Assembly (NCBI GenBank): GCA_902623585.1
Contig: CACNUO010000001.1
Coordinates: 72,314 to 136,313 of the forward strand
DNA from: an uncultured Alphaproteobacteria bacterium
GTDB taxonomy: Bacteria; Pseudomonadota; Alphaproteobacteria; HIMB59; GCA-002718135
DNA length: 64,000 nt
Reading direction: 5' to 3'
The notes under the pieces are model-generated. The model did no database searches. It worked only from the letters and a program-made list of their open reading frames with translations, and was not told where the DNA came from. Below are positions 35,029 to 51,698 of the stretch, piece by piece; within the stretch, counting starts at the first letter, position 1, and each line of letters begins with the position of its first letter. The position numbers and the translations under genes are program-made.

Positions 35029-36195
35029 TTATTCAAAATCTTTTTGAAAATTTGGAATTAATATTTTGCGACCACCATCCATTGCGGATTCATGTGCACA
35101 AATTCCTGCTGCCGTCCAATTAGCAGTAATTGATCCATTTGGCCATGGTTGCCGATTTTCATAAATACTTATAACAAATTCATTAACAAGATGTGGGTGA
35201 GATCCATGATGACCACCACCTTGAATGAAACTAAGATGCTCTTTATCTTTATTAAATATTTCTTCTTTAGTAAAACGAGCTATTTCTTTAGGTAGTAAAT
35301 CTTGGCGATCTGGTACATTGATATGCTCAAAAGTAATTTTATTACCTCTGCCCAAGCTTGGAATATGTGAAGATTTTTCATCTGGGTTCATTTCAAATAC
35401 TACAGGATTATCATTTTCAAGTTGCTGCCATTCAAACGTTCCCTTTTCTCCGTATATATTAAAACTTTCAGTATAATCTCTTGCCGTATGAAATAAACTT
35501 CGAGTTACTTCAGCTGCAAGAGGTGTATCATATTCTAATTCAAAAATTGCCGTTTCAACTGGGTAAGGATTATTGTATTGATTTATTAGTTCTTTACGCA
35601 TAACTCCTGAACCAAAACAATGTACAGATTTGGCATGTGTATTGGCTAAAGCAAGAACAGGAGAAATTGCGTGTGTAGCATAATGCATAGGTGGTAATCC
35701 CATCCAATAAGAAGGCCATTTTTCCATATCTTGATAATGAGCTCCTCTAAGCAATTGAATTCTACCAATTTTATCATTTTTTAACATTTCTTGTGCGTAT
35801 ATGAAATGACGTGTGTAAACTGCAGTTTCCATTCCCATATAAACTTTATTACTTTTTTTTTGGGCTTTTAATATTTCTAATAGATCTTTAATACTTGTCG
35901 CCATTGGAACAGTACAAGCACAATGTTTACCAGATTGAAAGACATCAATTGTTTGTTTAGCATGTAGAGGTATTGGTGTTACTAAATGTACTGCATCAAT
36001 ACTTTTATCATCAAGTATTTCTTCAAAGCTTCTAGCTTTATTTGCCAATTCAAATCGATTTCCAACCTCTTCTAAAACTTGAATATTTGTATCAAAAATT
36101 GTTAATTTTCTAACTAATGGATGATTAAGATAGATCGGAATAAAATCAGCTCCAAAACCTAAGCCTATGAGAGCTATACTTAAATTTTTTTCCAT
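35029..36195 (-). CDS. Gfo/Idh/MocA family NAD(P)-dependent oxidoreductase
   Basis: 388 aa with N-terminal Rossmann IALIGLGFGADF and a C-terminal alpha/beta domain typical of sugar/cyclitol dehydrogenases. Confidence 0.8.
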   Translation of the reverse strand: MEKNLSIALIGLGFGADFIPIYLNHPLVRKLTIFDTNIQVLEEVGNRFELANKARSFEEILDDKSIDAVHLVTPIPLHAKQTIDVFQSGKHCACTVPMATSIKDLLEILKAQKKSNKVYMGMETAVYTRHFIYAQEMLKNDKIGRIQLLRGAHYQDMEKWPSYWMGLPPMHYATHAISPVLALANTHAKSVHCFGSGVMRKELINQYNNPYPVETAIFELEYDTPLAAEVTRSLFHTARDYTESFNIYGEKGTFEWQQLENDNPVVFEMNPDEKSSHIPSLGRGNKITFEHINVPDRQDLLPKEIARFTKEEIFNKDKEHLSFIQGGGHHGSHPHLVNEFVISIYENRQPWPNGSITANWTAAGICAHESAMDGGRKILIPNFQKDFE

Positions 36196-36206
36196 AGTTT
36201 ATTATT

Positions 36207-37325
36207 TTATATTCTTTTAAAATTATTAAAATTAAATAATCCTATAATTAAAATATAGATAACAAAAAAAACTAAAAAGAAATAATTTATATTTATATTA
36301 ATAATATTTCCAATAAGATTAGGTCCAAGAAAACTCCCGATATTCTCACTTATATAGTGTCCTGCTATTCCAAAAACTATAACTCCTCCTTCAAGTTTTT
36401 TTCCAACAATATTAAATGTAATTAAAAAAACTGTCCCAATTGTATAATAGTAAAAAGCTACACAAATTACATAGATATAAAAATCACTAATTGAATAAAG
36501 TACTAATAAGTTAATTAAGTTAATGAAGCAAAATGAATTAAAAATTATAGTTTTATTATAATTGTCAACTAGCTTACCCATAAATGGATAAAAAAATAAT
36601 GCTATTGCTCCTGCTAAAAAATTAATTCTTCCAATTTGCTTATCACTATAATTTTCTTCTAATAAGTAAGATGGAAATAAAGAACTGAATCCAGCATCAC
36701 ATACACCAAATAATATTACACAAAAAAGTAAATATTTAATTTTACTTAAAACGTTTTTAGATAATCTAAGACTAAGGTTTTCAATGGCAATTTTACTAAT
36801 AGATAAACGAAATAAATAGATTGGAATAAAATGCATAAGAAAAAATAAAACAGCTAAATAATATGTAAAATTATTTATACCATTAATTGCAATAAATAGA
36901 CTTCCAGTAATTGCGCCTAATCCAGCAGATGACCAAAATAAAGATATGTAGAAACCAGATGATTTTTTAAATTTAGAGCTGATGTATGATTCAAGCGTTA
37001 ATGAATTAATTGTGCTTGTTATACCCATAACAAATTGCATTAAAGCCACAAGGAAAGTATTTTGATCAAATAAAAAAATTAATGAGAATGTAAATTGAAT
37101 CAATGAACCATACAAAATTGTTGAAATCAAATTTAATTTTTTTCTTATTAAATTATGTAATAATGCTCCTAAAATAACTCCAATACCCCATAATGATAAC
37201 GATAGACCTATGTAACGTTCTTCATAACCTTTTATTTTTAAATCAATAGCAAAACATGTTGCTAAATAACTATGTGACAATGCATATAAAAAAATTAGGC
37301 AAGAATATTTTAAAATTTCTTTCAC
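36207..37325 (-). CDS. MFS-type transporter
   Basis: 372 aa, about 11-12 hydrophobic helices. Co-directional with the downstream oxidoreductase, 11 nt away. Confidence 0.65.
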   Translation of the reverse strand: MKEILKYSCLIFLYALSHSYLATCFAIDLKIKGYEERYIGLSLSLWGIGVILGALLHNLIRKKLNLISTILYGSLIQFTFSLIFLFDQNTFLVALMQFVMGITSTINSLTLESYISSKFKKSSGFYISLFWSSAGLGAITGSLFIAINGINNFTYYLAVLFFLMHFIPIYLFRLSISKIAIENLSLRLSKNVLSKIKYLLFCVILFGVCDAGFSSLFPSYLLEENYSDKQIGRINFLAGAIALFFYPFMGKLVDNYNKTIIFNSFCFINLINLLVLYSISDFYIYVICVAFYYYTIGTVFLITFNIVGKKLEGGVIVFGIAGHYISENIGSFLGPNLIGNIINININYFFLVFFVIYILIIGLFNFNNFKRI

Positions 37326-37369
37326 TGTTTAGTTGAATTAATTATTATTATGTTTATTAGAGTTGACAT

Positions 37370-38434
37370 ATGTCATTAATTTCGCTTCGACAACTATTAG
37401 ATCATGCTGCTGAAAATAATTATGGTGTACCAGCATTTAATGTAAATAACCTGGAAGCGATTAGGGCTATAATGGAAGGGGCTAAAGAGTTAAATAGCCC
37501 AGTTATTTTGCAAGCTTCTGGAGCAGCAAGAAAATACGCTGGCCCCATTTTTGTTAAAAAATTAGTAGAAGCCGCAATGGACGAATTTTCAGACATTCCA
37601 ACTGTTTTACATCAAGATCATGGTGGATCTCCATCAGATTGCAAAAATTGTATCGAACTTGGATTTACTTCTGTCATGATGGATGGCTCCTTAATGGATG
37701 ACCAAAAAACACCTTCAGACTTTGATTATAACGTTAGAGTTACCAAAGAAACAACTGATATGGCGCATGCCTTAGGTGTTTCCGTTGAAGGAGAAATTGG
37801 ATGCTTAGGTTCTTTGGAAACTGGAACTGGGGAAAAAGAAGATGGTGTTGGTGCAGAAGGCAAACTTGATCATGATCAACTTTTAACAGATCCAGATGAG
37901 GCATCAGATTTTGTTAAGGCAACTAATGTAGATGCATTAGCTATTGCTATTGGAACGAGTCATGGAGCTTATAAATTTTCTCGACCACCTACAGGTGATA
38001 TTTTAGCAATTGATAGAATTAAAGAAATACATTCAAGACTTCCAAATACTCATTTAGTAATGCATGGATCATCCTCTGTTCCTCAAGATTTAATAAAAAC
38101 TATTAACGAATATGGCGGAAAAATAAAAGAAACATACGGTGTACCTGTGTCTGAAATCCAAGAAGGAATTAAACATGGTGTTCGAAAAGTAAATGTTGAT
38201 ACAGACTTAAGACTAGCAGCTACAGCTGCAGTAAGAAAATATTTCCATGAAAACCCTTCTCAATTTGATCCTAGAAAATATTTATTACTTTCAAAAGACG
38301 CTATGAAAGAAGTTGTAAAAAGTAGACTTCAAGAATTTGGAACTGCAGGAAATGCTTCATCTATAAACTCAATTTCTTTAGGTGAAATGTCAAAAAAATA
38401 TAAATCTGGTGAGTTTAAAGCTATTATCAATTAG
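37370..38434 (+). CDS. fba: Fructose-bisphosphate aldolase, class II
   Basis: 354 aa with N-terminal [22 protein letters not shown], then HQDHG and MHGSSSVP motifs. Confidence 0.92.
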
Positions 38435-38479
38435 CTTTTTATTATTGATAAAAATTATTTTTTAATCCAAAATATAAAT

Positions 38480-39307
38480 ATGAAAAAAGTTTCACAGCTT
38501 GATGAATATTTATTTGATTTAAATGGATATTTAATAATTGAAAATGCTTTAAGTAAAAAAGAATTAAAAGATCTTAATAATATTCTAGATAAATTAAAAA
38601 GTTTAAAACATAAAGAATGGGCAGGCTATGTTCATGGACACAATTACGGTGGTAAGGAAGGTTTAAATCTTCAACAAATTTATGAAGCCGGAAAACCCTT
38701 TGAAAAATTAATTGATCATCCTTCATGGATAAATCATATGCTTCATTTTGTTGGAGGAAAAGATACATTTGATCAACATCATGGACCATTATTTATCGAT
38801 GAAAATTTTGCGAATATTAGAGGGCAAGGAGAAGCTATTGGCATTCATTCTGGTGCTCACGAAGGAACTCAAAGAGGTCATTATAGATTTGAAAATGGAA
38901 AATTTCACTGCGGACAAATTAATATTTTGCTAGCTCTCAATGATATAGGCCCTGGTGATGGTGGTACAGTCATTATTCCTTCATCACATAAATCAAATTT
39001 ACGTCATCCAGAGTTTGATAAACATGTTATGAAAAAGGGTAAAGTTACATCAGCTGATAATATGACAGCTTCAAAAGAAATTTATTTAAAAGCTGGAGAC
39101 GGACTATTATTTGTAGATTCACTTTGTCATGGTTCTGCAAAAAGAACAAATAAAGGAGAAAGAAGAATTGTTGTTTACAGATATGGGCCATCTTGGGGTT
39201 TTTTTAGACACCCTTATCGACCTTCAAAAAAACTACTTTCAAATCTCACTGAATTTCAAAAAAAAATAGTAATGCCTCACGAGCAAGTACTTTCACCAAA
39301 TAACTAA
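38480..39307 (+). CDS. PhyH-family Fe(II)/2OG oxygenase paralogue with a non-canonical H-S-G at the expected HxD position
   Basis: 275 aa. It has the PhyH N-terminal pattern (FDLNGYLIIENALS), ILLALNDIGPGDGGTVIIPSSH and a distal His in FVDSLCHGSAKR. The first metal motif reads GIHSGAHEG (codons at 38846-38866). Confidence 0.7.
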   Translation: MKKVSQLDEYLFDLNGYLIIENALSKKELKDLNNILDKLKSLKHKEWAGYVHGHNYGGKEGLNLQQIYEAGKPFEKLIDHPSWINHMLHFVGGKDTFDQHHGPLFIDENFANIRGQGEAIGIHSGAHEGTQRGHYRFENGKFHCGQINILLALNDIGPGDGGTVIIPSSHKSNLRHPEFDKHVMKKGKVTSADNMTASKEIYLKAGDGLLFVDSLCHGSAKRTNKGERRIVVYRYGPSWGFFRHPYRPSKKLLSNLTEFQKKIVMPHEQVLSPNN

Positions 39308-39386
39308 AAAAACAAGGTTATTTACTAGTTAAATACATTTTTTTTATCTTGATTTTTCGATCAATTTAACTTTTAAAAGATATATT

Positions 39387-39396
39387 AAAGGGAGGA
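39387..39396 (+). promoter_or_regulatory. Strong Shine-Dalgarno block AAAGGGAGGA, 4 nt upstream of the SBP start
   Basis: Same 10-mer as at 28844 and 45656. Confidence 0.6.
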
Positions 39397-39400
39397 ATAG

Positions 39401-40654
39401 ATGAAATTAATTAAATCCTTAATTTTGTCTCTTGCAGTTTTAGTTGGGTTTTCATCAACTACAAATGCTAGAGATATTACACTTTCAATGTGGACGCATA
39501 ACCAGCTCTATGTTGATTACTTCAATACTTATCTTGAAGAAGTGCAAGCTGCATTTCCAGATGATAATATTACTTTTGATTTTCAAGTTACGCCTGATAT
39601 GGCTACAAACAGTTTAACGGCGATTGCTTCAGGTTCTGAACATACTGATCTTTTAGGAATTGAGATAAGCGGTTTTGGCTTATTTATGGTTGATGATATT
39701 ATTTCAGACAACTTTGTACCACTAACAGATATGTACGGTGACATGTCTCAATGGAATCCAGGAAAAGTAGCTGCTTGGACTCATACTAATGGTGAGATAT
39801 ATGGAATTGAAAGTGAAGGCTGTTATATGGTCTATTACTACAACCCAAGCATTCTTGAAAGTTATGGTAAGTCAGTGCCGAAAACTTGGGATGAGTTTAT
39901 GGAAACTGGAAAAATTTTAGCTAAAGATGGTATTTCAATGATGCTTTCTGAATTGAGATTTATTGGTATGTACCAGCAAGCTGGTGGTAAATTCTTCAAT
40001 GAAGATGGTGAATTTGAAATGGATGAAGATCTTTTCATGGAAGTTTTAAAATTCCAAGAAGAAGCTTTTGCATCTGGAGTAATTAATTATACTACTGACT
40101 ATTGGGGTCAAACACCTGGTGTTCTTTACAATTCAAAGCAAACTGTAGGAACTATGGCGCCTGACTGGTATAACAACTGTTGTTTACAACCTACAGTTAA
40201 GGATACTCAATCTGGTGAGTGGAGAGTTGCTCCTCTTCCTACTTGGGGAGATGAAGGATATAAAACTTTTCACTGGGGTGGAACTGGTTTTGCCATTCAT
40301 AAATCTTCAGAAGCTGTAGACGTTGCTAAAAAGTTACTTGAACTCGCTTACTTCTCATATGAAGGTCAAATTGCAAAATATGATTTCTTTGGAGGAATGC
40401 CTACTTTATTGGCTGCTCTTGAAGATCCAAGAATTGCAGATAAAAAATTTGATTTTTATGGAGGTCAAAAATTTGCAGAGCCGTTTATTTCTGTAGCAGG
40501 GTCAAGTGCTGATGACTATCAGCATGTTGGTCGAGCTATTATTGATAGTGTTTCTCGTGATTTGACAACATTATTAGCAAATGGTGAAATAACTGCTGAG
40601 GAAGCTCATGAAAGGTTCATTTCACAAGTTCAGGATGAACTTGACTTTTTATAG
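39401..40654 (+). CDS. CUT1-type sugar ABC transporter substrate-binding protein
   Basis: 417 aa with a signal peptide (...SSTTNA/RD) and SBP_bac_1-like composition. Followed by sugar permease domains. Confidence 0.8.
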   Translation: MKLIKSLILSLAVLVGFSSTTNARDITLSMWTHNQLYVDYFNTYLEEVQAAFPDDNITFDFQVTPDMATNSLTAIASGSEHTDLLGIEISGFGLFMVDDIISDNFVPLTDMYGDMSQWNPGKVAAWTHTNGEIYGIESEGCYMVYYYNPSILESYGKSVPKTWDEFMETGKILAKDGISMMLSELRFIGMYQQAGGKFFNEDGEFEMDEDLFMEVLKFQEEAFASGVINYTTDYWGQTPGVLYNSKQTVGTMAPDWYNNCCLQPTVKDTQSGEWRVAPLPTWGDEGYKTFHWGGTGFAIHKSSEAVDVAKKLLELAYFSYEGQIAKYDFFGGMPTLLAALEDPRIADKKFDFYGGQKFAEPFISVAGSSADDYQHVGRAIIDSVSRDLTTLLANGEITAEEAHERFISQVQDELDFL

Positions 40655-40667
40655 ACGATAATTTTTT

Positions 40668-40693
40668 AAAGCAGGGTTTTTACCCTGCTTTTT
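40668..40693 (+). terminator. Hairpin AAAGCAGGGT-TTTT-ACCCTGCTTT plus T tail after the SBP gene
   Basis: A perfect 10-bp stem 14 nt after the SBP stop, located inside the operon. Confidence 0.55.
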
Positions 40694-40716
40694 AAAAATC
40701 AAATCAAAATAATAAT

Positions 40717-44541: not shown

Positions 44542-45570
44542 TTTAGTTTTTTTAATTTTGTGACTTGTTCCTTCATTTAATATTGGCTCAATTAAAGTAG
44601 ATATTTTTTTTATTGATATATCTTGTTCTAGGTTTTGTAAAATTTTTACAGATTGTCTCCCCATTTCCATTAATGGGTGTGAAATATATGTAAGATTTTG
44701 AGAGCTTAAATAACTGTCCTGGTCATTAAATCCTACCACAGAAATATCTTTTCCAATTTCTAATTTCATATCCTGACATTTTAACAAACAGCCTGTAAAA
44801 AAACGAAGATGAGAACAAATTATTGCAGTAGGAGGTTTTTTTAAACTTAATAAATACTTTGTTATGGCAGATCCTGATTCAACAGTTTCAATTAAACTAT
44901 CTTGATAATATTCATTTGAATATTGTAGTTGTAAGTTTTTTATTGAACTTTCATAAGCAGCTTTTCGTTGTGCTCCATAATTAAAACTTCGATGAACATT
45001 GATAAAAGCAATTCTTTTATGGCCATTATTTGAAAGCTTATCCATTAACAGTTCAATACTTTTCTTATTATCCAGATCAATCCAAGCATGCTCTGTTTGT
45101 TTGTTAGTTCTACCCCAAGTCACAAATTTGATTCCTCTTTGGTTTAAGAATTGAACTCTTTCATCATTTTTTTTAATTTTATAAAAAATAAATTTATCTG
45201 CTTGACCTGTATTAATGAGTTTTTTGAAATAGTTCATTTCTTCATCTTCATTTAAGCAAAATTTTGTTATTAATTCAGTATTTGTATTTTTTATCCCAAG
45301 AGTAATTCCTGCAAGAAACTGTAAAACAACGTGATCTGGTGCGTCAGGATCTATGGATGATATAAAAGCAATTGTATCCGTTTTCTTGGAAGCTAATCTT
45401 TTGGCATTTAAGTCAGGAAAGTAGTTATATTTTTTAGCTGTTTTAAAAATTTTATCTTTTGTTTTCTGTGATATATTGTCATATCCATTCAATGCTCTTG
45501 ATACTGAACTCACTGATAAACCTAATTTTTGAGATAAACCAACAATATTTATTTTCTTGTTTTTCTTCAT
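44533..45570 (-). CDS. LacI family transcriptional regulator
   Basis: 345 aa with N-terminal HTH INIVGLSQKLGLSVSSVSRALNG and a periplasmic-binding-protein-like effector domain. Divergent from the downstream ABC operon. Confidence 0.9.
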   Translation of the reverse strand: MKKNKKINIVGLSQKLGLSVSSVSRALNGYDNISQKTKDKIFKTAKKYNYFPDLNAKRLASKKTDTIAFISSIDPDAPDHVVLQFLAGITLGIKNTNTELITKFCLNEDEEMNYFKKLINTGQADKFIFYKIKKNDERVQFLNQRGIKFVTWGRTNKQTEHAWIDLDNKKSIELLMDKLSNNGHKRIAFINVHRSFNYGAQRKAAYESSIKNLQLQYSNEYYQDSLIETVESGSAITKYLLSLKKPPTAIICSHLRFFTGCLLKCQDMKLEIGKDISVVGFNDQDSYLSSQNLTYISHPLMEMGRQSVKILQNLEQDISIKKISTLIEPILNEGTSHKIKKTKLS

Positions 45571-45619
45571 AATACTTAAAATCTATTAATTAAATTAAAT
45601 AATACTATTTGGCTTGACA

Positions 45620-45635
45620 AGTAAAACGTTTTACT
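45620..45635. promoter_or_regulatory. Perfect 16-bp palindrome AGTAAAACGTTTTACT: LacI-family operator, abutting a TTGACA -35-like hexamer (45614-45619)
   Basis: It has the central CG and dyad symmetry typical of LacI/GalR operators. It lies in the 100-bp divergent region between the LacI gene and the SBP gene. Confidence 0.65.
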
Positions 45636-45655
45636 AAATTGTCAAATTATTAAAA

Positions 45656-45665
45656 AAAGGGAGGA
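45656..45665 (+). promoter_or_regulatory. Strong Shine-Dalgarno block AAAGGGAGGA, 5 nt upstream of the SBP start
   Basis: Same 10-mer as at 28844 and 39387. Confidence 0.6.
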
Positions 45666-45670
45666 AAATA

Positions 45671-46915
45671 ATGAAAAAATTTTTTTCAATATTATTAACT
45701 ATATTCGTACCCCTATCTTTTACTAACGTTTCCAAGGCTTCTGGTCACATGGAAGCTGAAGTTATTCACTGGTGGACTTCTGGTGGAGAGCAAGCTGCAA
45801 TTTCAGAATTTGCTAAAGCTTGGGAAGAAATGGGTAATACTTGGATTGACACTGCAATTACTGGTGGTGATAATGCAAGAGGTACAACTGTAAACAGAAT
45901 TATTGGTGGAAATCCGCCAACTGCAGCACAGTTCAACGTATCAAAACAATTTGTAGATTTAGTTGAGCAAGGTTTACTTCAATCACTTGAAGAAGTTGCT
46001 TCAGCAGAGGGTTGGAGAGATTTTATTTACCCACCTGAATTAATTGAAACTTGTGAATTTGAAGGTGAATTTTATTGTGTACCTGTAAATATTCACAGCT
46101 GGCAATGGATGTGGATCAACAATGACGTTTACAAACAAGTTGGTTTACCAGTGCCTCAAACTTTTGAGGAATTTTTAGCTGGAGCTCCAAAAATTCAAGA
46201 AGCTGGAATCATTCCATTGGCACTAGGTGGTCAGGGATGGCAAGAATCTGGTATGTTTGATGTTGTTGCGTCTTCAATAATGGGCTTTCCTCTAATGCAA
46301 TCAATTTATAGAGATAAGGATCTAGATGCATTTAGAGATGGAAGATTTGAGTCAGTTCTAAATACTTACAGAGAATTAAATCAATTCACAGATGAAGGTT
46401 CTCCTGGAAGATTATGGAATGATACTACAGCTATGGTTATCGAAGGAAAAGCTGCAATGCAAGTTATGGGAGATTGGGCAAGAGGTGAATTTGCTGTTGC
46501 TGGACAAGAAGCAATGGTTGATTATTCTTGTGTAATTCCTGGTAAAGAAAAATATGTTGCTCTTGGTGGTGATGTATTTGTTTTTCCTAAAAATGATGAT
46601 CCAAAAGTGAAAGATGCTCAGCTAGCAATGGCAAGTATGATGGTTAATCCAACTGTACAGGCTAAATTTAACAATGCTAAAGGTTCTCTTCCTATGAGAC
46701 TTGACGTTGATACTTCTGCAGCTGATGCTTGTATGCAAATGGGTTTAGATTTAATTCAAAATCCAGATGCAATTATGAGAGAAAGTGACGATTGGAATAC
46801 TCCTGCGTTCACTGCAGCATGGGGTGATATTATTTCTGAATTTAGAAATGATCCTAATTACACTGTTGCTCAAGTAATGGACGACTTAGAAGGCGTTTTA
46901 ACTAGCGGACTTTAA
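45671..46915 (+). CDS. CUT1 sugar ABC substrate-binding protein, GtsA-like (glucose/mannose type)
   Basis: 414 aa with a signal peptide. The motif EVIHWWTSGGEQAA...GGNPPTAAQ closely matches the Pseudomonas GtsA-type glucose-binding protein pattern (VHWWTSGGE). Confidence 0.78.
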   Translation: MKKFFSILLTIFVPLSFTNVSKASGHMEAEVIHWWTSGGEQAAISEFAKAWEEMGNTWIDTAITGGDNARGTTVNRIIGGNPPTAAQFNVSKQFVDLVEQGLLQSLEEVASAEGWRDFIYPPELIETCEFEGEFYCVPVNIHSWQWMWINNDVYKQVGLPVPQTFEEFLAGAPKIQEAGIIPLALGGQGWQESGMFDVVASSIMGFPLMQSIYRDKDLDAFRDGRFESVLNTYRELNQFTDEGSPGRLWNDTTAMVIEGKAAMQVMGDWARGEFAVAGQEAMVDYSCVIPGKEKYVALGGDVFVFPKNDDPKVKDAQLAMASMMVNPTVQAKFNNAKGSLPMRLDVDTSAADACMQMGLDLIQNPDAIMRESDDWNTPAFTAAWGDIISEFRNDPNYTVAQVMDDLEGVLTSGL

Positions 46916-46924
46916 ATATATACG

Positions 46925-46954
46925 AAATGGCAGGATTAATTTATCCTGCCATTT
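46925..46954 (+). terminator. Hairpin AAATGGCAGGAT-TAATTT-ATCCTGCCATTT after the SBP gene
   Basis: A perfect 12-bp stem 10 nt after the SBP stop and 9 nt before the permease start. Confidence 0.5.
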
Positions 46955-46962
46955 AACATTTT

Positions 46963-47844
46963 ATGCCTTTTTATAGAAACATAGCTGCAAAAATAGCACT
47001 GTTACCGATGATAGTTATATCTTTAACTGTCTTTGTTGGATGCATTATTTATTCTTTTGTATATTCTTTAACAAACTCAAAATTAGTTCCAGTAATGAAC
47101 TATGTTGGTTTTGATCAATACGAAAGATTATTTAAACAAAGAAAATGGGATGTAGCTGTAGAAAATATTTTTATTTATGGTTTTGTATTTACAATTGGTT
47201 GTCTGATTATTGGTTTTTTATTAGCAGTTTTGATTGATCAAAAAATAAGAGGTGAGAGTTTATTTAGAACAATTTTTTTATATCCTTATGCCATGTCTTT
47301 TGTTGTTACTGGTTTAGTCTGGAAATGGGTTTTAAACCCAACATTTGGTCTAGAGAATTCAATGCATATGTGGGGTATGACATGGTTTGAATTAGACTGG
47401 TTGGTAAATAGAGATCTTGCAATCTATGCTGTATGTATAGCTGCTGTTTGGCAAGGCGCAGGTTTTGTAATGGTATTAATGTTAGCAGGACTCAGAGGAA
47501 TTGATGAAGATATTTGGAAATCACTTAGTATTGAAGGTGTAGCTAAATGGAAATCTTATATTTTTGTAATTTTGCCGATGTTAAGACCAATGGTAGTAAC
47601 CGCAATTGTCTTGATTGCAGCAGGTGTAGTAAAAGTCTATGATTTAATTTTAGCTCTTACATCTGGTGGACCAGGATATGCCACTACAACACCTGCAATG
47701 TATGTAATGGAGAATTTTTTTAGTAGAGCAAATTTAGGACAAGCTTTTGCAGCTTCTATAATAATGTTTATTTCAGTTGTATGTATTCTTGCTCCCTGGG
47801 CTTTTTATGAATTTTATCTAAGAAACAAATACGCAAATAACTAA
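46963..47844 (+). CDS. Sugar ABC permease (GtsB/UgpA-like)
   Basis: 293 aa, 6 TM, with EAA loop region SLSIEGVAKWKSYIFVILPML. Confidence 0.87.
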   Translation: MPFYRNIAAKIALLPMIVISLTVFVGCIIYSFVYSLTNSKLVPVMNYVGFDQYERLFKQRKWDVAVENIFIYGFVFTIGCLIIGFLLAVLIDQKIRGESLFRTIFLYPYAMSFVVTGLVWKWVLNPTFGLENSMHMWGMTWFELDWLVNRDLAIYAVCIAAVWQGAGFVMVLMLAGLRGIDEDIWKSLSIEGVAKWKSYIFVILPMLRPMVVTAIVLIAAGVVKVYDLILALTSGGPGYATTTPAMYVMENFFSRANLGQAFAASIIMFISVVCILAPWAFYEFYLRNKYANN

Positions 47845-48725
47845 TGTCTACTATTCCTAAAGGACCTCGACCAAAACACCTTACAGTTGGAAGAATAGGT
47901 TTGTATTGTTTTATAATTATGTGCGCATTATTTTTTTTAATGCCCTTATACGTAATGATCATAACTTCTCTTAAAGATATGGATGAAATAAGAGCTGCTA
48001 ATATTTTAAACCTCCCGAAAGAACTTAGTTTTTATGCTTGGCCAAAAGCTTGGTCTCAAGCATGTACAGGATTTGTATGTGAGGGATTGAAGCCAGGTTT
48101 TGTTAACTCCGTGAAGATAACTGTACCTAGTGTAATTGTATCCGTAGCTTTAAGTGCACTTAATGGATATGCATTAGCCTTTTGGCGTTTTAGGGGAGCA
48201 TACTTCTTTTTTGGCCTATGTATGTTTGGTGCATTCATTCCTTATCAAGTAATGGTGTACCCACTTTTAAAAATAGAAGATTTCTTAGGTATTTATTCTT
48301 CTTTACCAGGCATCATACTTGTTCATACTATTTTTGGTATGCCAATACTAACACTTATCTTCAGAAATTTTTACGCGAGTCTTCCAATAGATCTATTTAA
48401 AGCTGCCAGAATAGATGGTGGTAATTTTATAAAAATATTTTTTTATGTAATAATTCCAATGTCTACTCCTATAACTATCGTAGCTGTCATTCTTCAAGTT
48501 ACAGGAATTTGGAATGATTTTCTTCTAGGATTAGTTTTTGCAGGAAGAGACAACCAACCAATGACAGTTCAATTAAATAATATTGTGCAAGTAGATTATG
48601 GTGTTGCCGAGTACAACGTAGATATGTCAGCAACAATATTAACTTCTCTAGTTCCTCTTTTTGTATACTTTATTTCTGGAAGATGGTTTGTGCGTGGAAT
48701 AGCAGCTGGGGCAATAAAGGGGTGA
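47844..48725 (+). CDS. Sugar ABC permease (GtsC/UgpE-like)
   Basis: 293 aa with EAA loop KAARIDGGNFIKIFFYVIIPM. The start overlaps the upstream stop. Confidence 0.87.
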   Translation: MSTIPKGPRPKHLTVGRIGLYCFIIMCALFFLMPLYVMIITSLKDMDEIRAANILNLPKELSFYAWPKAWSQACTGFVCEGLKPGFVNSVKITVPSVIVSVALSALNGYALAFWRFRGAYFFFGLCMFGAFIPYQVMVYPLLKIEDFLGIYSSLPGIILVHTIFGMPILTLIFRNFYASLPIDLFKAARIDGGNFIKIFFYVIIPMSTPITIVAVILQVTGIWNDFLLGLVFAGRDNQPMTVQLNNIVQVDYGVAEYNVDMSATILTSLVPLFVYFISGRWFVRGIAAGAIKG

Positions 48726-48727
48726 GT

Positions 48728-49801
48728 ATGAAAAATAGTGTTGAAGTAAAAAATATATCGTTCAGTTATGGAAAAACTGAAATATTAAATGATTTAAGTC
48801 TAGATATTAAAGAGGGAGAATTCATGGTTTTGCTTGGCCCTTCAGGTTGTGGAAAGACTACTTTATTAAACTGTATAGCCGGTCTTTTGGATTTAACGGA
48901 TGGACAGATTTGGATTGAAGAAGATAACGTTACATGGAAAGAACCAAAAGATAGACATATAGGAATGGTATTCCAATCTTACGCATTGTACCCAAGTATG
49001 ACTGTTGAGAAAAATTTATCATTTGGGTTAAGAATGATGGGTACGGCAAAAGATTTAATTAATGAAAAAATTAAAAATGCTGCAACTCTACTACAAATAA
49101 ATGAATTACTTAAAAGAAAACCCTCTCAACTCTCTGGAGGCCAAAGACAGCGTGTAGCCATTGGTAGAGCTTTGGTTAGAGATGCAAAAGTTTTTTTATT
49201 TGACGAACCTTTAAGTAATCTTGATGCAAAATTAAGAGCTGAACTACGCTATGAAATTAAAAAACTTCATAGAGATTTATCAAATACTATGATTTACGTT
49301 ACTCATGATCAAATAGAAGCTATGACGCTTGCGGACCGTATATCTGTTATGAAAGATGGATTAATACAGCAATTAGATACACCTAAACAAATTTATAACA
49401 AACCAGCTAATTTATTTGTGGCTGGTTTTATTGGATCTCCAAGCATGAATTTTTTAAATGCCAAATTTGAAAAATCAAATCAAAATATAATTGTTGGGAA
49501 TAAACAAATTGATATTTCTAAATATGAAAACATAAATAAATTGATTAATGATCAAGAGGTTGTTTTTGGAATAAGACCTGAAAATATAAACATAGAAAAA
49601 AATGAAAATTCTATTCAATGTAAAGTTGAATTAGTGGAACCTATGGGGGCAGATACTCTTGTGTGGACTAGTGTTGAAAGTAACCCGATATCTATTAGGC
49701 TAGAAGGAAGTTCAAATTTTAATTTAAATGATGAAATAAACATTTCATTTGATATAAATAAATCTTCAATATTTGATAGCAAAACTGAGGAGAGAATTTA
49801 A
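48728..49801 (+). CDS. Sugar ABC ATPase (MalK/UgpC/GtsD type)
   Basis: The start is MKNSVEVKNISFSYG (ATG 48728); the track's TTG 48683 extension lies inside the permease. It has Walker A GPSGCGKTT, LSGGQRQRVAIGRAL, Walker B FLFDEPLSNLD and a MalK-like C-terminal domain. Confidence 0.92.
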   Translation: MKNSVEVKNISFSYGKTEILNDLSLDIKEGEFMVLLGPSGCGKTTLLNCIAGLLDLTDGQIWIEEDNVTWKEPKDRHIGMVFQSYALYPSMTVEKNLSFGLRMMGTAKDLINEKIKNAATLLQINELLKRKPSQLSGGQRQRVAIGRALVRDAKVFLFDEPLSNLDAKLRAELRYEIKKLHRDLSNTMIYVTHDQIEAMTLADRISVMKDGLIQQLDTPKQIYNKPANLFVAGFIGSPSMNFLNAKFEKSNQNIIVGNKQIDISKYENINKLINDQEVVFGIRPENINIEKNENSIQCKVELVEPMGADTLVWTSVESNPISIRLEGSSNFNLNDEINISFDINKSSIFDSKTEERI

Positions 49802-50574
49802 TGAACAGAAATCAAGTAACAATGCAGTTGTACACAACAAGAAAATTTCAACCTTACGAGCCAATATTTAAATTCCTATCTGAGTCTGGAATTAAAAATA
49901 TTGAATTATTTGATTTAGATAAAATTGATTTAGATAATTTTAAATCAATGATGGAAGAAAATAGTATTTCTATAAAATCTTCTCACATAAGTTTTCAAGC
50001 AATTACAAATACAGAAGAAACAATTAGTAGGATGAAATATCTAAATATTAAGCATGCGATAGTACCTTCTGTGCCTGAAAAATTTAGTAAAGATTTTGCT
50101 TCAAATTTTGATCTTGATGAAGACACTTGGAATAACTTTGGTAAAGATCTCTCATCATATGTACAAACGTATGAAGATAATGGTCTAACTCTTGGTTATC
50201 ATAATCATTCATTTGAATTCAGACCTCTTCCTAGCGGTAAGCTTCCAATAGAATGTATGATGGATCACAATGAAAATCTAAAAATGGAACTTGATCTTGG
50301 ATGGGCAGTTGCTGGAAAAGCAGATCCACTTGATTGGATAGAAAAATATAAAAATAAAATTATTGGCTGTCACTTGAAAGATTTTTTTGATGAAACAAAA
50401 AATCTTTTAGACCATAGTGAACAATCTGCTGTAGGAGAAGGTTTCATAGATTGGCCAAAGCTTCTTGCAGAAGTTAAAAAAACACCATGTGAAGTTTTTG
50501 TACTAGAACACGATGATCCAAAAGATTATAAAGAATACACAACAAAGTCTTTAGAATATTTAGAGACAATTTAA
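49801..50574 (+). CDS. Sugar phosphate isomerase/epimerase (xylose-isomerase-like TIM barrel)
   Basis: 257 aa with the pattern ...LGYHNHSFEF...MELDLGWAV...VFVLEHDDP typical of AP-endonuclease-2/XI-like TIM barrels. Confidence 0.75.
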   Translation: MNRNQVTMQLYTTRKFQPYEPIFKFLSESGIKNIELFDLDKIDLDNFKSMMEENSISIKSSHISFQAITNTEETISRMKYLNIKHAIVPSVPEKFSKDFASNFDLDEDTWNNFGKDLSSYVQTYEDNGLTLGYHNHSFEFRPLPSGKLPIECMMDHNENLKMELDLGWAVAGKADPLDWIEKYKNKIIGCHLKDFFDETKNLLDHSEQSAVGEGFIDWPKLLAEVKKTPCEVFVLEHDDPKDYKEYTTKSLEYLETI

Positions 50575-51698
50575 TGAATATTGGAATTGTTGGCTGTGGG
50601 AATATTTCTGAGACATATTTTGAATGTCAAAAAATATTTAATAATTTCAAAATAGTTGCTTGCGCTGATATTAATAAGGAAGCTGCTTCTAATGCTGCAT
50701 CTAAATATAATGTTAAATCTCTATCAGTTGAAGAAATTGTAGAAAGTAATGAAATTGATTTAATCATTAATTTAACAATACCTGCAGCCCATAAAGAAAT
50801 TATTACAAAATCACTACAAAATGGCAAACATTGTTTTAGTGAAAAGCCTTTAGCAATGAACTTTCAAGAAGGTTTAGAAATACGAAAATTAGCAGATGAA
50901 AAAGATTTATATGTTGGATGTGCACCGGATACTTTTCTAGGAGCTGCAGGTCAAAAAGCTAGAAAATTAATTGAAGACAATAAGATAGGTAAAGTTGTTC
51001 TTGGTACATTTAATTTAATGTCTCATGGTATGGAGCATTGGCATCCTAATCCAGATTTTTTCTTTAAACCTGGAGCTGGACCAGTTTTTGATGTTGGTGT
51101 TTATTATATTACGCAATTAGTTAACTTAATTGGACCAGTTAAAAAAATAAATGCAATCAGTGGAACTGCTACGAATGAAAGAACAATAACTAGCCAACCA
51201 AGATACGGAGATAAAATAAAAGTCGAAACACCAACAACCCTTATGGGTTCCTTAGAGTTTCAAAACAGTGCAAAAATACAGTTTTTTTGTACTTGGGATG
51301 TTTGGAAAAACAATCATTCAACAATTGAACTTTATGGACTTGATGGCTCGATGATTGTCCCTGATCCAAATTTTTTTAGTGGTGATTTATTAATTTCCCA
51401 AAAAGATAGTGATTGGGAAACTATTAATAATGATAACATGTTATTAGGTATCCCTAATAAAAGTGATGGAGAAGGTAACAAAAAAGCTAATTATAGAGGA
51501 ATAGGTCTCTCAGAAATGATTGATTCTATATCTAAAAATCGAAAAGCAAGATGTTCTCTCGAATTATCTCTTCATGTTTTAGAGATTATGGATGGTATTA
51601 TAAAATCAGCTGAGGAAAACAAACCTTATCAACTATCTACTTCTCCAAATCAACCTAAAATATTAACTGAAGAAGATATAAAAAATTTAAAAAATTAA
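50574..51698 (+). CDS. Gfo/Idh/MocA family oxidoreductase
   Basis: 374 aa with MNIGIVGCGNISETYF Rossmann and an EKP motif (FSEKPLA). Confidence 0.85.
   Translation: MNIGIVGCGNISETYFECQKIFNNFKIVACADINKEAASNAASKYNVKSLSVEEIVESNEIDLIINLTIPAAHKEIITKSLQNGKHCFSEKPLAMNFQEGLEIRKLADEKDLYVGCAPDTFLGAAGQKARKLIEDNKIGKVVLGTFNLMSHGMEHWHPNPDFFFKPGAGPVFDVGVYYITQLVNLIGPVKKINAISGTATNERTITSQPRYGDKIKVETPTTLMGSLEFQNSAKIQFFCTWDVWKNNHSTIELYGLDGSMIVPDPNFFSGDLLISQKDSDWETINNDNMLLGIPNKSDGEGNKKANYRGIGLSEMIDSISKNRKARCSLELSLHVLEIMDGIIKSAEENKPYQLSTSPNQPKILTEEDIKNLKN

What the first reader, a model, noticed from the sequence alone, without database searches (positions are those of the whole stretch)
35029..51698. Oxidoreductase-rich sugar island with no kinase and no classical hydrolase: signature of oxidative (keto-sugar) glycoside or cyclitol catabolism
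This 16.7-kb span holds two CUT1 ABC systems and an MFS transporter. It also holds three Gfo/Idh/MocA dehydrogenases (35029-36195, 42545-43588, 50574-51698), an aldo/keto reductase, a xylose-isomerase-like TIM barrel, a PhyH oxygenase, class II FBA and a LacI regulator. No sugar kinase, PTS component, phosphorylase or retaining/inverting GH is present. The pairing of a Gfo/Idh/MocA dehydrogenase with an XI-like TIM barrel is the core of inositol catabolism (IolG/IolE), levoglucosan catabolism, C-glycoside cleavage and the 3-keto-glycoside elimination routes. Together with the NAD-dependent GH4 enzymes upstream, the whole island seems built around NAD-dependent oxidation-elimination chemistry. 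That would be a cofactor-recycling, ATP-sparing strategy suited to an oligotroph.
Basis: partly seen in the sequence, partly recalled or inferred. Interest (0 to 1): 0.6.

Follow-up and report, generated by a model that had tools for sequence, protein, structure and literature searches.

The report
SAR11 non-hydrolytic beta-glucoside cleavage operon
This stretch of a SAR11 (Pelagibacterales) genome carries a repressor-controlled operon that most likely imports small beta-glucosides and splits them by oxidising the sugar and eliminating the partner, not by hydrolysis; that would give the ocean's most abundant bacteria an unrecognised way to use sugar fragments.

Summary
The gene inventory is correct at the stated coordinates, and no kinase, PTS, phosphorylase or classical glycosidase domain occurs anywhere in the 64-kb window.

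The core is one LacI-controlled operon (44533-51698): SBP, two permeases, MalK, a TIM barrel and a Gfo/Idh/MocA dehydrogenase (GFO3).
- The TIM barrel is a full-length homologue of A. tumefaciens O-glycoside beta-eliminase (8BVK, E 1.6e-28). It keeps that enzyme's whole active-site signature, and its model best matches the three solved 3-keto-beta-glucoside lyases.
- TIM and GFO3 are adjacent in 70 of 70 SAR11 loci. The cassette is orthologous to rhizobial ones, including one whose SBP matches the description of SMc04259, which binds cellobiose and gentiobiose but not glucose.
- The window's SBP lacks the His loop of true glucose binders. Those, such as SAR11_0769, sit next to a ROK kinase instead.

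Not supported:
- cyclitol catabolism;
- a single coherent 16.7-kb island, since this is a tRNA-Met-anchored mosaic;
- a kinase-free, ATP-sparing strategy, since import is ATP-driven and a HIMB59-like relative has a ROK kinase in the same operon.

No enzyme activity or ligand has been measured. I rate it a new variant of a known pathway kind.

The parts
44533..45570 (-). LacI-family repressor, transcribed divergently from the transporter-enzyme operon
   Evidence: Pfam LacI and Peripla_BP_3. Below all NCBIfam equivalog cutoffs. Its presence or absence in other loci tracks the operator.
45620..45635 (.). Perfect 16-bp palindrome AGTAAAACGTTTTACT, the predicted LacI operator next to a TTGACA hexamer
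   Evidence: Read directly from the sequence. It is the only exact copy in the window. The core is conserved at the same position in 29 related loci, all of which have lacI or end before the lacI position, and it is absent where lacI is absent.
45671..46915 (+). SBP1b, a periplasmic CUT1 binding protein of the glucose / beta-diglucoside family; predicted to bind a beta-glucoside
   Evidence: Matches 5XPJ, 5DVF, 4R2B and 8HQQ at E 1e-72 to 1e-64. It is 34-39% identical both to glucose binders and to the cassette-type SBPs. It shares the indel pattern of the latter and lacks the His-bearing loop. It has a Sec-type signal peptide.
46925..46954 (+). Hairpin with a 12-bp stem directly after the SBP1b stop codon; likely an intra-operon attenuator or stabiliser
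   Evidence: Terminator-like scan.
46963..48725 (+). Two CUT1 permease genes (46963-47844 and 47844-48725)
   Evidence: Pfam BPD_transp_1. 50-53% identical to the Hyphomicrobiales cassette L074.
48683..49801 (+). MalK/UgpC-type ATPase; the only CUT1 ATPase in the island, so probably shared with CUT1 system 1
   Evidence: Pfam ABC_tran, OB_MalK and TOBE_2. NF008653 at 455 bits against a 432-bit cutoff. 51-58% identical to the S. meliloti and Thioclava cassette ATPases.
49801..50574 (+). Short XI-like TIM barrel (257 aa, cytoplasmic); predicted Mn2+-dependent 3-keto-beta-glucoside 1,2-lyase (beta-eliminase)
   Evidence: Matches 8BVK AtOGE at E 1.6e-28 over the full length. The AtOGE signature is identical. 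The AF2 model has pLDDT 95.8. The best fold matches are AL1, BT1 and AtOGE. It overlaps malK and GFO3 by 1 nt each.
50574..51698 (+). GFO3, a cytoplasmic Gfo/Idh/MocA NAD(P) oxidoreductase; predicted glycoside 3-dehydrogenase that may also reduce 3-keto-glucose
   Evidence: Pfam. The best solved relative is DgpA1 (9M3D, E 2.6e-15, full length), followed by levoglucosan dehydrogenase 6A3F. 39-48% identical to the GFO next to the short TIM barrel in five alphaproteobacterial cassettes. Adjacent to TIM in 70 of 70 loci. No TAT or Sec signal.
42545..43588 (+). GFO2, a conserved backbone oxidoreductase; candidate keto-sugar reductase or aldose 1-dehydrogenase
   Evidence: Best solved relatives are dimeric dihydrodiol/xylose dehydrogenase, KijD10 sugar 3-ketoreductase, aldose-aldose oxidoreductase and GFOR (E 1e-30 to 1e-24), and 1,5-anhydrofructose reductase. 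It overlaps AKR by 4 nt. Conserved across SAR11.
43585..44541 (+). Aldo/keto reductase, translationally coupled to GFO2; candidate keto-sugar reductase
   Evidence: Pfam. PDB relatives are IolS, the DepB/AKR6D1 3-keto reductases and 2,5-diketogluconate reductases. It lies directly upstream of TIM in the 18 loci that lack the transporter.
38480..39307 (+). PhyH-family Fe(II)/2-oxoglutarate oxygenase (PhyH2); part of the ancestral PhyH2-GFO2-AKR-TIM-GFO3 run; role unknown
   Evidence: Pfam. Weak match to 4XC9, 4XCA and 4XCB. Contiguous with GFO2 in L046.
39401..42543 (+). CUT1 system 1: SBP1a (39401-40654) plus a single fused MalF-MalG-type permease of 608 aa (40717-42543); a variable insert with no ATPase
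   Evidence: Pfam. The two halves of the permease match different permease subunit models. SBP1a resembles di- and oligosaccharide binders only weakly. It is present in about half of the close relatives.
37370..38434 (+). Class II fructose-1,6-bisphosphate aldolase; a housekeeping central-metabolism enzyme that is always adjacent
   Evidence: TIGR01521 equivalog at 592 bits against 496. A class I FBA occupies the same slot in L062.
35029..37325 (-). GFO1 (35029-36195) and an MFS transporter (36207-37325); a variable pair just after the tRNA-Met; function unassigned
   Evidence: Pfam. GFO1 matches known enzymes only over its N-terminal Rossmann domain. MFS is seen in only three other loci and GFO1 in none; most loci with the transporter insert do not reach this far upstream.
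34941..35017 (+). tRNA-Met (CAT), a conserved landmark with variable cassettes on both sides
   Evidence: Rfam and ARAGORN. The same tRNA follows GH4a in L037, L046, L047 and L062.
23586..27237 (.). Upstream NAD+/Mn2+ GH4 genes: GH4a (23586-24947, -) and GH4b (25753-27237, +), with PhyH1 (24940-25722, -) between them
   Evidence: Pfam. Both GH4 proteins pass NF011657, the MelA-type alpha-galactosidase model, at 595 and 553 bits against 486. GH4a is conserved in other SAR11 loci; GH4b was not seen in the 11 related loci that extend back to GH4a.

Best explanation
The functional core is a LacI-repressed operon, lacI / operator / SBP1b-permF-permG-malK-TIM-GFO3 (44533-51698). It imports a small beta-glucoside and cleaves it in the cytoplasm without hydrolysis. 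The substrate is most plausibly a beta-linked glucose disaccharide such as laminaribiose, gentiobiose or cellobiose; its identity is inferred, not shown. Proposed steps follow. (1) SBP1b binds the non-reducing glucosyl unit, leaving the anomeric side open for the aglycone, and the ABC importer takes the glycoside up. (2) GFO3 oxidises C3-OH of that glucosyl unit with NAD(P)+ (inferred). (3) The TIM barrel, a Mn2+ enzyme of the AtOGE/AL1/BT1 type, removes H2 and eliminates the C1 substituent. This releases the aglycone (a glucose) and 2-hydroxy-3-keto-glucal. The homology, active site and fold are shown; the activity is inferred. (4) The glucal is hydrated to 3-keto-glucose, either slowly by the same lyase, as reported for AL1 and BT1, or spontaneously. 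SAR11 has no AtHYD-type or DUF1080-type hydratase here. (5) 3-keto-glucose is reduced back to glucose by GFO3 using the NADH made in step 2, or by the neighbouring GFO2 or AKR (inferred). In genomes without the transporter insert, GFO2 and AKR sit directly upstream of TIM-GFO3, in one same-strand run with PhyH2. Free glucose is then handled by enzymes encoded outside this window. The rest of the 16.7-kb span is a tRNA-Met-anchored mosaic of optional transporters (SBP1a with a fused permease, and GFO1-MFS) placed around this enzyme backbone. It is not a single pathway.
For: TIM barrel: full-length match to AtOGE 8BVK (E 1.6e-28), then to AL1-type and BT1-type lyases. All AtOGE metal ligands, catalytic His134 and the flanking residues are identical in every SAR11 allele. 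The AtHYD-like TIML, TIM2 and E. coli YcjR proteins differ at 4-8 of the 12 signature positions. H134A and H189A abolish AtOGE activity (PMC10628242). The AF2 model has pLDDT 95.8. Of its top seven fold matches, six are chains of the three solved 3-keto-beta-glucoside lyases and one is an uncharacterised homologue (3OBE); all rank ahead of AtHYD, IolE, the epimerases and YcjR. Operon: malK/TIM and TIM/GFO3 each overlap by 1 nt. TIM-GFO3 are adjacent in 70 of 70 loci. There is a single perfect palindromic operator, conserved in 29 loci and co-varying with lacI. Orthologous cassettes (SBP 34-39%, MalK 51-58%, TIM 28-33%, GFO 39-48% identical) occur in S. meliloti, Agrobacterium T29, P. gei, Thioclava and a Hyphomicrobiales MAG. 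The Agrobacterium T29 and Thioclava loci add an AtHYD/AtGfo-like pair, and no glycoside hydrolase is annotated in either cluster. That gives a complete four-enzyme set. The S. meliloti cassette matches the description of SMc04256-59, whose SBP binds cellobiose (33 nM) and gentiobiose (53 nM) but not glucose, mannose, xylose, maltose or lactose (PMC3454389). SBP1b shares the indels of these cassette SBPs. It lacks the 5-residue His loop found in ppGBP and in five SAR11_0769-type glucose binders. SAR11_0769 binds glucose at or below 27 pM (PMC11485210). Genes of SAR11_0769-type SBPs sit next to a ROK kinase rather than a TIM-GFO pair. AL1 and BT1 lyases also hydrate the glucal slowly (preprint 10.1101/2024.03.25.586180). 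TIM and GFO3 have no signal peptides, whereas true AtOGE orthologues do.
Against: No activity or ligand has been measured for any protein of this cassette clade. TIM is only 28% identical to AtOGE. GFO3 is far below every NCBIfam equivalog cutoff: levoglucosan dehydrogenase 74 bits against 650, and BT_2159 42 bits against 650. Its best solved relative scores only 59 bits, so C3 regiochemistry is an assumption. SBP1b is as similar overall to glucose binders (37-39%) as to the cassette SBPs (34-39%), so the substrate call rests on indels and one loop. No dedicated hydratase is present. The S. meliloti and Hyphomicrobiales cassettes also carry a GH2 beta-mannosidase-like gene, so TIM-GFO may do something other than primary glycoside cleavage there. 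Equating L078 with SMc04253-60 rests on matching gene content, not on locus tags. The GFO3 structure model was too poor to use.
Confidence: 0.6

Rival explanations
1. The cassette imports free glucose or another hexose, as SAR11_0769 and Pseudomonas GtsA do. TIM-GFO3 then convert the monosaccharide through a keto intermediate (isomerisation, epimerisation, or oxidation to a sugar acid). This would be the 'variant glycolysis' once proposed for SAR11.
For: The strongest solved relatives of SBP1b are glucose-bound monosaccharide binders (E 1e-72 to 1e-64), and it keeps the HWWTSGGE and MGDWA[KR]GE motifs. Some SAR11 are known to take up glucose (PMC11485210). GFO2 resembles aldose 1-dehydrogenases.
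Against: SBP1b lacks the His loop present in ppGBP and in all five full-length SAR11_0769-type proteins aligned, and it shares its indels with the cassette SBPs, whose S. meliloti member matches the beta-diglucoside-specific SMc04259. SAR11-type glucose SBP genes are paired with a ROK kinase, not with TIM-GFO. The TIM barrel carries the complete lyase signature rather than that of hydratases or epimerases, and lyases are its best fold matches.
Confidence: 0.15
2. The chemistry is the same, but the substrate is an anhydro-sugar or other glucose-sized intramolecular or small glycoside, for example levoglucosan from biomass-burning aerosol, or methyl or glyceryl glucosides. This would be analogous to LgdA/LgdB.
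For: Levoglucosan dehydrogenase is among the nearest solved or curated relatives of GFO3 and GFO1. A pocket that is open at O1 would also fit a 1,6-anhydro bridge or a small aglycone. The LgdA/LgdB1 logic is the same dehydrogenase plus TIM-barrel eliminase pairing (PMC10628242).
Against: The LevoglcsnDh equivalog scores are 57-82 bits against a 650-bit cutoff. The only ligand measured for an SBP of this kind of cassette (SMc04259, matched to L078 by description) is a beta-diglucoside. No ligand data exist for the SAR11 SBP.
Confidence: 0.1
3. Cyclitol (myo-, scyllo- or chiro-inositol) catabolism through an IolG-like dehydrogenase and an IolE-like dehydratase.
For: The generic family pairing is Gfo/Idh/MocA plus an XI-like TIM barrel. 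There are weak hits to the IolG and IolE models. IolE structures appear at ranks 16-19 of the fold search.
Against: IolG scores are 59-90 bits against 355, and IolE is 46 bits against 290. The window has no iolB, iolC, iolD, iolJ or iolA. The SBP is of the glucose/glucoside CUT1 type.
Confidence: 0.03
4. The whole 16.7-kb island is one kinase-free, ATP-sparing oxidative sugar strategy.
For: No kinase, PTS or phosphorylase domain occurs anywhere in the window. There are many NAD-dependent enzymes, including two GH4 genes.
Against: The structure is a mosaic with independently variable inserts around a tRNA. LacI has one operator, at one promoter. Uptake is ATP-driven. An FBP aldolase is in the cluster. 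A ROK kinase is co-operonic with TIM-GFO3 in L064.
Confidence: 0.05

Closest known systems
Agrobacterium tumefaciens GlycDH-OGE-HYD-Gfo pathway (Bitter et al. 2023, PMC10628242; AtOGE 8BVK, AtHYD 8RO4)
   Same: The logic is oxidation at C3, Mn2+-dependent beta-elimination by a short lid-less XI-like TIM barrel, then hydration and reduction to glucose. The window's TIM barrel is a full-length homologue with an identical active-site signature.
   Different: In Agrobacterium the oxidant is a periplasmic GMC flavoprotein with a small subunit, and close AtOGE orthologues (55-57% identical, in Paracoccus and Palleronia) carry signal peptides. In SAR11 both enzymes are cytoplasmic and the oxidant is a Gfo/Idh/MocA enzyme. 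There is no AtHYD-type or AtGfo-type pair and no DUF1080. TIM is only 28% identical to AtOGE and belongs to a separate cassette clade.
Bacteroides/Alistipes AL1-4 and BT1-4 'alternative glycan breakdown' cluster (Nasseri et al., preprint 10.1101/2024.03.25.586180; 8TCD, 8TCR, 8TCT)
   Same: A GFO-family 3-dehydrogenase works with a 'sugar phosphate isomerase' that is really a 3-keto-beta-glucoside 1,2-lyase. These lyases are the best fold matches of the SAR11 TIM barrel. The lyase can also hydrate the glucal.
   Different: AL and BT enzymes 1-3 are periplasmic, with Sec, lipoprotein or TAT signals, and they use tightly bound NAD. They include a DUF1080 alpha-lyase/hydratase. Sequence identity to the SAR11 TIM barrel is about 20%. 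The SAR11 system is fed by an ABC importer.
Sinorhizobium meliloti SMc04253-SMc04260 cassette (SBP SMc04259; PMC3454389)
   Same: The gene order is the same: LacI-SBP-permease-permease-MalK-...-short TIM-GFO. GFO3 is 48%, MalK 58%, SBP 36% and TIM 28% identical. The SBP shares the indel pattern and lacks the O1-capping His.
   Different: S. meliloti has an extra GH2 beta-mannosidase-like gene and an AKR of a different lineage. Only its SBP has been characterised, not TIM or GFO. The match between L078 and these locus tags is inferred from gene content.
SAR11_0769 glucose transporter of Ca. P. ubique HTCC1062 (Clifton et al. 2024, PMC11485210; 8HQQ) and the SAR11 'glycolysis operon' (Schwalbach et al. 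2010; composition known to me only from memory)
   Same: Same SBP superfamily (37-38% identical) and a CUT1 importer found variably in SAR11 genomes.
   Different: SAR11_0769-type SBPs have the His loop and sit beside a ROK kinase. SBP1b lacks the loop and is fused to a lyase-dehydrogenase pair. At the 40% identity filter used in that study, SBP1b would not be counted as a SAR11_0769 homologue.
Levoglucosan LgdA/LgdB, C-glycoside DgpA/DgpBC, and E. coli YcjQRS
   Same: Each is a cytoplasmic Gfo/Idh/MocA 3-dehydrogenase paired with an XI-like TIM barrel that acts on the 3-keto sugar, often with an ABC importer.
   Different: The equivalog thresholds are not met. There is no DgpB-type second subunit or lid. 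YcjR shows no detectable similarity to the SAR11 TIM barrel and has a different active-site pattern.

Membership tests
3-keto-beta-glucoside 1,2-lyase / O-glycoside beta-eliminase (AtOGE, AL1, BT1) | Significant full-length sequence similarity to a characterised member | tested here: met
   8BVK at E 1.6e-28, query residues 6-254 of 257 against chain residues 10-251 of 259, 28% identity. 8TCS and 8TCD at about 4e-12.
3-keto-beta-glucoside 1,2-lyase / O-glycoside beta-eliminase (AtOGE, AL1, BT1) | Mn2+ ligands (H132, D163, H189, E233) and catalytic His134, AtOGE numbering | tested here: met
   All are identical, as are E39, H66, N133, E161, K191, H234 and D235, in every SAR11 allele. The AtHYD-like, TIM2 and YcjR proteins differ.
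3-keto-beta-glucoside 1,2-lyase / O-glycoside beta-eliminase (AtOGE, AL1, BT1) | Short single-subunit TIM barrel whose closest folds are the known lyases | tested here: met
   AF2 pLDDT 95.8. Foldseek ranks 1-4 are AL1 and BT1, and ranks 6-7 are AtOGE with a target-normalised TM of 0.84.
3-keto-beta-glucoside 1,2-lyase / O-glycoside beta-eliminase (AtOGE, AL1, BT1) | Genetic coupling to a sugar C3-oxidising enzyme | tested here: inconclusive
   A GFO oxidoreductase is adjacent in 70 of 70 loci and overlaps TIM by 1 nt. Its C3 regiochemistry is not established.
3-keto-beta-glucoside 1,2-lyase / O-glycoside beta-eliminase (AtOGE, AL1, BT1) | Catalytic release of aglycone from 3-keto-beta-glucosides | not testable with these tools
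   Needs an enzyme assay.
Gfo/Idh/MocA glycoside 3-dehydrogenases (DgpA, LgdA, BT_2158/2159, YcjS) | Gfo/Idh/MocA N-terminal and C-terminal domains with the EKP motif | tested here: met
   PF01408, PF22725 and PF02894. S89-E90-K91-P92 are invariant in the alignment.
Gfo/Idh/MocA glycoside 3-dehydrogenases (DgpA, LgdA, BT_2158/2159, YcjS) | Reaches a curated equivalog threshold of a characterised 3-dehydrogenase | tested here: not met
   LevoglcsnDh 74 bits against 650 and BT_2159_fam 42 against 650. BT_2158_fam was not hit by GFO3. DgpA1 scores only 59 bits. YcjS is 23% identical.
myo-Inositol catabolism (IolG and IolE) | IolG and IolE equivalog scores, and presence of iolB, iolC, iolD and iolJ | tested here: not met
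   TIGR04380 gives 59-90 bits against 355. TIGR04379 gives 46 bits against 290. No other iol gene is in the window.
Monosaccharide glucose-binding SBPs (ppGBP/GtsA, SAR11_0769) | Loop with the conserved His (PS[FMY]AH[GN]MA), the GGGG motif and the YN[VI]DS motif | tested here: not met
   SBP1b has a 5-residue deletion where the His loop lies, a 2-residue deletion at GGGG, and GGDVFVFP in place of YNVDSF. Overall homology is nonetheless strong.
beta-Diglucoside SBPs of the SMc04259 type | Shared indel pattern, loss of the O1-capping His, and the same operon context | tested here: met
   Alignments and orthologous cassette context. Identity is only 36-39%, and ligand binding is not testable here.
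   PF02056 and PF11975. NF011657 alpha-galactosidase at 595 and 553 bits against 486.

The most novel reading that the evidence does not exclude
A large fraction of oceanic SAR11, which are regarded as users of small metabolites with almost no glycosidases, would take up laminarin- or cellulose-derived beta-glucose disaccharides. They would cleave them with a minimal two-enzyme cytoplasmic pair, one dehydrogenase plus one lyase that doubles as hydratase. This would make SAR11 direct scavengers of the ocean's largest polysaccharide pool. It would also mean that metagenomic 'glucose transporter' counts miss or mislabel this system. The two TIM allele classes (about 65% identical within otherwise about 90% identical neighbourhoods) would then mark different linkage or aglycone specificities.
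Probability: 0.3. Interest if true: 0.8.

Novelty: new variant of a known kind. Interest (0 to 1): 0.6.

Why it matters
SAR11 cells respire a large share of marine dissolved organic carbon. Their known sugar use is limited to glucose in some strains, and their genomes are nearly devoid of glycoside hydrolases.

A conserved, regulated and very abundant operon for non-hydrolytic beta-glucoside cleavage would add a new substrate class to the SAR11 carbon budget, possibly laminarin breakdown products released by other bacteria.

It would extend the recently discovered oxidation-elimination route from gut and soil bacteria to the open ocean. It would also define a minimal cytoplasmic form of that pathway.

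There is a practical warning too. SBPs of this family are annotated as 'glucose/mannose' binders, yet one loop appears to separate the glucose binders from the glycoside binders.

The hypothesis is directly testable with three recombinant proteins and existing SAR11 isolates.

Tried and rejected
1. Inositol, levoglucosan and C-glycoside family membership: all NCBIfam equivalog scores are far below the cutoffs.
2. E. coli YcjR/YcjS-type 3-keto-glucoside epimerisation: YcjR has no BLAST similarity to the TIM barrel and a different active-site pattern.
3. Looking for a SAR11_0769 orthologue in the same genomic slot: every SBP in the 76 loci is only about 37% identical to it, so it is a different lineage.
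4. Looking for further LacI operators, to test whether the island is one regulon: there is only one exact site. The single 3-mismatch hit at 28812 is within the chance expectation.
5. AF2 model of GFO3: pLDDT 62, with the substrate domain below 50, because the alignment was shallow (75-96% identical sequences). I ran no fold search on it.
6. Finding the gene content of the published SAR11 'glycolysis operon': Schwalbach 2010 is not held, and the citing papers give no gene list. Its relation to this locus is therefore unresolved.
7. PhyH as a conserved partner: PhyH1, PhyH2 and the L064 PhyH are not orthologues of one another, so I assign no common role.
8. The Rfam scan of the island found only the tRNA.
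9. Literature check: no paper in the held library links SAR11 with 3-keto sugars. The library is incomplete, so this is weak evidence of novelty.

Full report
**Source and setting.** The window has about 30% GC. Its TIM-barrel protein is 100% identical over the tblastn match to those of the GORG-type single-cell genomes AG-899-B06 and AG-893-E11, and relatives occur in 73 Pelagibacterales-type loci. The organism is therefore SAR11. The sugar genes lie between rpoD (19776-21935) and mlaC/mlaA/uvrD (51721-55233).

**Observation.** They are three Gfo/Idh/MocA oxidoreductases (GFO1-3), an MFS transporter, a class II FBP aldolase, a PhyH oxygenase, two CUT1 systems, an aldo/keto reductase, a LacI regulator and a xylose-isomerase-like TIM barrel. 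The aldolase passes the TIGR01521 equivalog cutoff. The first CUT1 system is a binding protein plus a single fused 608-aa permease, with no ATPase. Two GH4 genes lie upstream, and both pass the MelA-type alpha-galactosidase cutoff. Pfam scans of all ORFs of about 90-100 aa or more across the 64 kb found no kinase, PTS, phosphorylase or classical GH domain. A tRNA-Met gene at 34941-35017 abuts the left edge of the span.

**Architecture.** Comparison with 76 related loci shows a mosaic, not one island.
- The conserved backbone is FBA-(PhyH2)-GFO2-AKR-TIM-GFO3-mlaC-mlaA-uvrD.
- In genomes such as L046, PhyH2, GFO2, AKR, TIM and GFO3 run consecutively on one strand with gaps of at most 15 nt.
- lacI plus SBP1b-permF-permG-malK is inserted between AKR and TIM. 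MalK is directly upstream of TIM in 44 of 69 loci, AKR in 18, and something else in 7.
- SBP1a and the fused permease form a second optional insert, between PhyH2 and GFO2.
- The tRNA-Met is a conserved landmark after GH4a. In this window the block PhyH1-GH4b-halogenase-like-Opp-type ABC lies before it and GFO1-MFS after it. L046-type genomes instead have another CUT1 system after the tRNA.
- TIM and GFO3 are adjacent in 70 of 70 loci, and malK/TIM/GFO3 overlap by 1 nt each.
- One perfect palindrome, AGTAAAACGTTTTACT (45620-45635), lies between lacI and SBP1b. It is unique in the window. It is conserved at the same place in 29 loci, all of which have lacI or end before the lacI position.

**The TIM barrel.**
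- Its best solved relative is 8BVK (E 1.6e-28, full length). That entry is the A. tumefaciens O-glycoside beta-eliminase, which converts 3-keto-beta-glucosides into aglycone and 2-hydroxy-3-keto-glucal (PMC10628242).
- The AtOGE metal ligands H132, D163, H189 and E233 and the catalytic H134 are identical in every SAR11 allele and in the related cassette TIM barrels. So are E39, H66, N133, E161, K191, H234 and D235.
- The AtHYD-like 350-aa barrels, a second barrel type and E. coli YcjR differ at 4-8 of these 12 signature positions.
- A high-confidence model (pLDDT 95.8) finds AL1, BT1 and AtOGE as best folds. They rank ahead of Art22, AsbF, the AtHYD hydratase, IolE, psicose epimerases and YcjR.

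**The partner dehydrogenase.** GFO3 is a cytoplasmic Gfo/Idh/MocA enzyme whose N-terminus starts directly with the Rossmann motif. Its nearest solved relatives are the C-glycoside 3-dehydrogenase DgpA1 (full length, E 2.6e-15) and, further down the list, levoglucosan dehydrogenase. It reaches no curated equivalog cutoff. A structure model was too poor to use. C3 regiochemistry is therefore inferred from context, not shown.

**Orthologous cassettes.**
- The order LacI-SBP-permease-permease-MalK-short TIM-GFO recurs in S. meliloti, Agrobacterium sp. T29, Pararhizobium gei, Thioclava and a Hyphomicrobiales MAG.
- Identities to the window proteins are GFO 39-48%, MalK 51-58%, SBP 34-39% and TIM 28-33%.
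- True AtOGE orthologues (55-62% identical; the two examined in detail, 55-57%) are a different, signal-peptide-bearing clade. In the two loci examined they sit with the periplasmic GMC glycoside 3-dehydrogenase, DUF1080 and a CUT2 importer. In Palleronia they also sit with a 350-aa TIM plus GFO pair that corresponds to AtHYD plus AtGfo.
- Thioclava and T29 hold both the short TIM-GFO pair and the AtHYD/AtGfo-like pair beside one CUT1 importer, and no glycoside hydrolase is annotated in either cluster. That is a complete cytoplasmic four-enzyme set.
- SAR11 has only the first pair.

**Substrate clue.**
- SBP1b strongly resembles glucose-bound monosaccharide binders: ppGBP 5DVF, 4R2B and SAR11_0769 8HQQ, at E 1e-72 to 1e-64. 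This at first pointed to free glucose.
- Three observations shift that reading.
  - The S. meliloti cassette matches the description of SMc04256-59, an ABC operon contiguous with the putative beta-mannosidase ManB. Its SBP binds cellobiose (33 nM) and gentiobiose (53 nM), but not glucose, mannose, xylose, maltose or lactose. It has lost the His that caps the anomeric OH (PMC3454389).
  - In alignments with full-length sequences, ppGBP and five SAR11_0769-type proteins share a 5-residue loop with a conserved His, a GGGG motif and a YN[VI]DS motif. SBP1b and all the cassette SBPs lack the loop and share the alternative indels.
  - Genes for SAR11_0769-type SBPs (82-98% identical, loci with 31-34% GC) lie directly beside a ROK sugar kinase. 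SBP1b is instead fused to the lyase-dehydrogenase pair. SAR11_0769 itself binds glucose at or below 27 pM (PMC11485210).

**Mechanism proposed.**
1. A beta-glucoside is imported. The specific candidates (laminaribiose, gentiobiose, cellobiose) are my inference.
2. GFO3 oxidises it at C3.
3. The Mn2+ lyase cleaves it.
4. The glucal is hydrated, either slowly by the same lyase, as AL1 and BT1 do, or spontaneously.
5. GFO3, or the adjacent GFO2 or AKR, reduces the product to glucose. The nearest solved relatives of GFO2 and AKR include sugar 3-ketoreductases, anhydrofructose reductase and keto-sugar reductases.

**What is not supported.**
- The cyclitol reading fails the IolG and IolE thresholds, and no other iol genes are present.
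- The 'ATP-sparing, kinase-free' idea is contradicted by ABC uptake, by the FBP aldolase, and by the overlapping ROK-PhyH-TIM-GFO3 operon in the HIMB59-like locus L064.

**Remaining uncertainty.**
- No protein of this cassette clade has been assayed.
- Whether this locus overlaps the published SAR11 'glycolysis operon' could not be settled. That paper is not held, and the citing papers give no gene list.
- No paper in the held library links SAR11 to 3-keto-sugar chemistry.

**Verdict.** The best explanation is a cytoplasmic, minimal variant of the known oxidation-elimination glycoside cleavage pathway, with confidence about 0.6. It is moderately to highly interesting because of the organism and its abundance.

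Noticed in passing
window 20988-20990: rpoD is interrupted by an in-frame TAA (…GVKR*DFVSQY…). The homologous codon in L068 is Glu (…GVKREEFISQY…), so this is a single GAA-to-TAA change in an essential gene. It is probably a single-cell amplification or assembly error rather than biology.
   Followed up: partly
window 49801-50574, compared with L030-L049: The TIM-barrel gene has two allele classes, at least 89% and 63-69% amino-acid identity to the window copy. They occur in neighbourhoods where GFO3, MlaA and UvrD mostly stay about 88-98% identical. This suggests allele replacement or diversifying selection on the lyase, possibly for different substrates.
   Followed up: partly
L062 6964-7980, compared with window 37370-38434: A MarineAlpha5-type relative has a class I FBP aldolase in exactly the slot where other SAR11 have the class II enzyme, just upstream of GFO2-AKR-TIM-GFO3. 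This is a non-orthologous displacement at a conserved position.
   Followed up: no
L064 8288-11894: The HIMB59-like SAG AG-426-I04 has an overlapping ROK kinase-PhyH-TIM-GFO3 operon next to a GH38-like gene and another CUT1 system.
   Followed up: partly
window 27241-28770 and 28858-34699: A tryptophan-halogenase-like flavoprotein (353 bits to PF04820) lies between GH4b and an Opp/Dpp-type ABC system that has an unusually long 675-aa SBP_5 protein. This block was not seen in the related loci that extend this far upstream. Its function is unknown.
   Followed up: no
window 40717-42543: Both CUT1 permease subunits (MalF/UgpA-like and MalG/UgpE-like) are fused into one 608-aa polypeptide, and this system has no ATPase gene of its own.
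   Followed up: partly
window 34941-35017; L037, L046, L047, L062: A tRNA-Met (CAT) is a conserved landmark directly after GH4a. Gene content differs on both sides of it between SAR11 genomes, so this is a tRNA-anchored hypervariable sugar locus.
   Followed up: yes
window 22759-23586: A PanB-like protein (115 bits against the 272-bit cutoff, so not a true ketopantoate hydroxymethyltransferase) is conserved next to GH4a and an MBL-fold hydrolase in many SAR11 loci. Its role is unknown.
   Followed up: no
L084 and L085: Some AT-rich marine contigs place the SAR11_0769-type glucose SBP and ROK kinase next to what looks like an inositol-type cluster: two GFOs, a 299-aa TIM barrel, a TPP enzyme, an aldehyde dehydrogenase and HpcH.
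   Followed up: no
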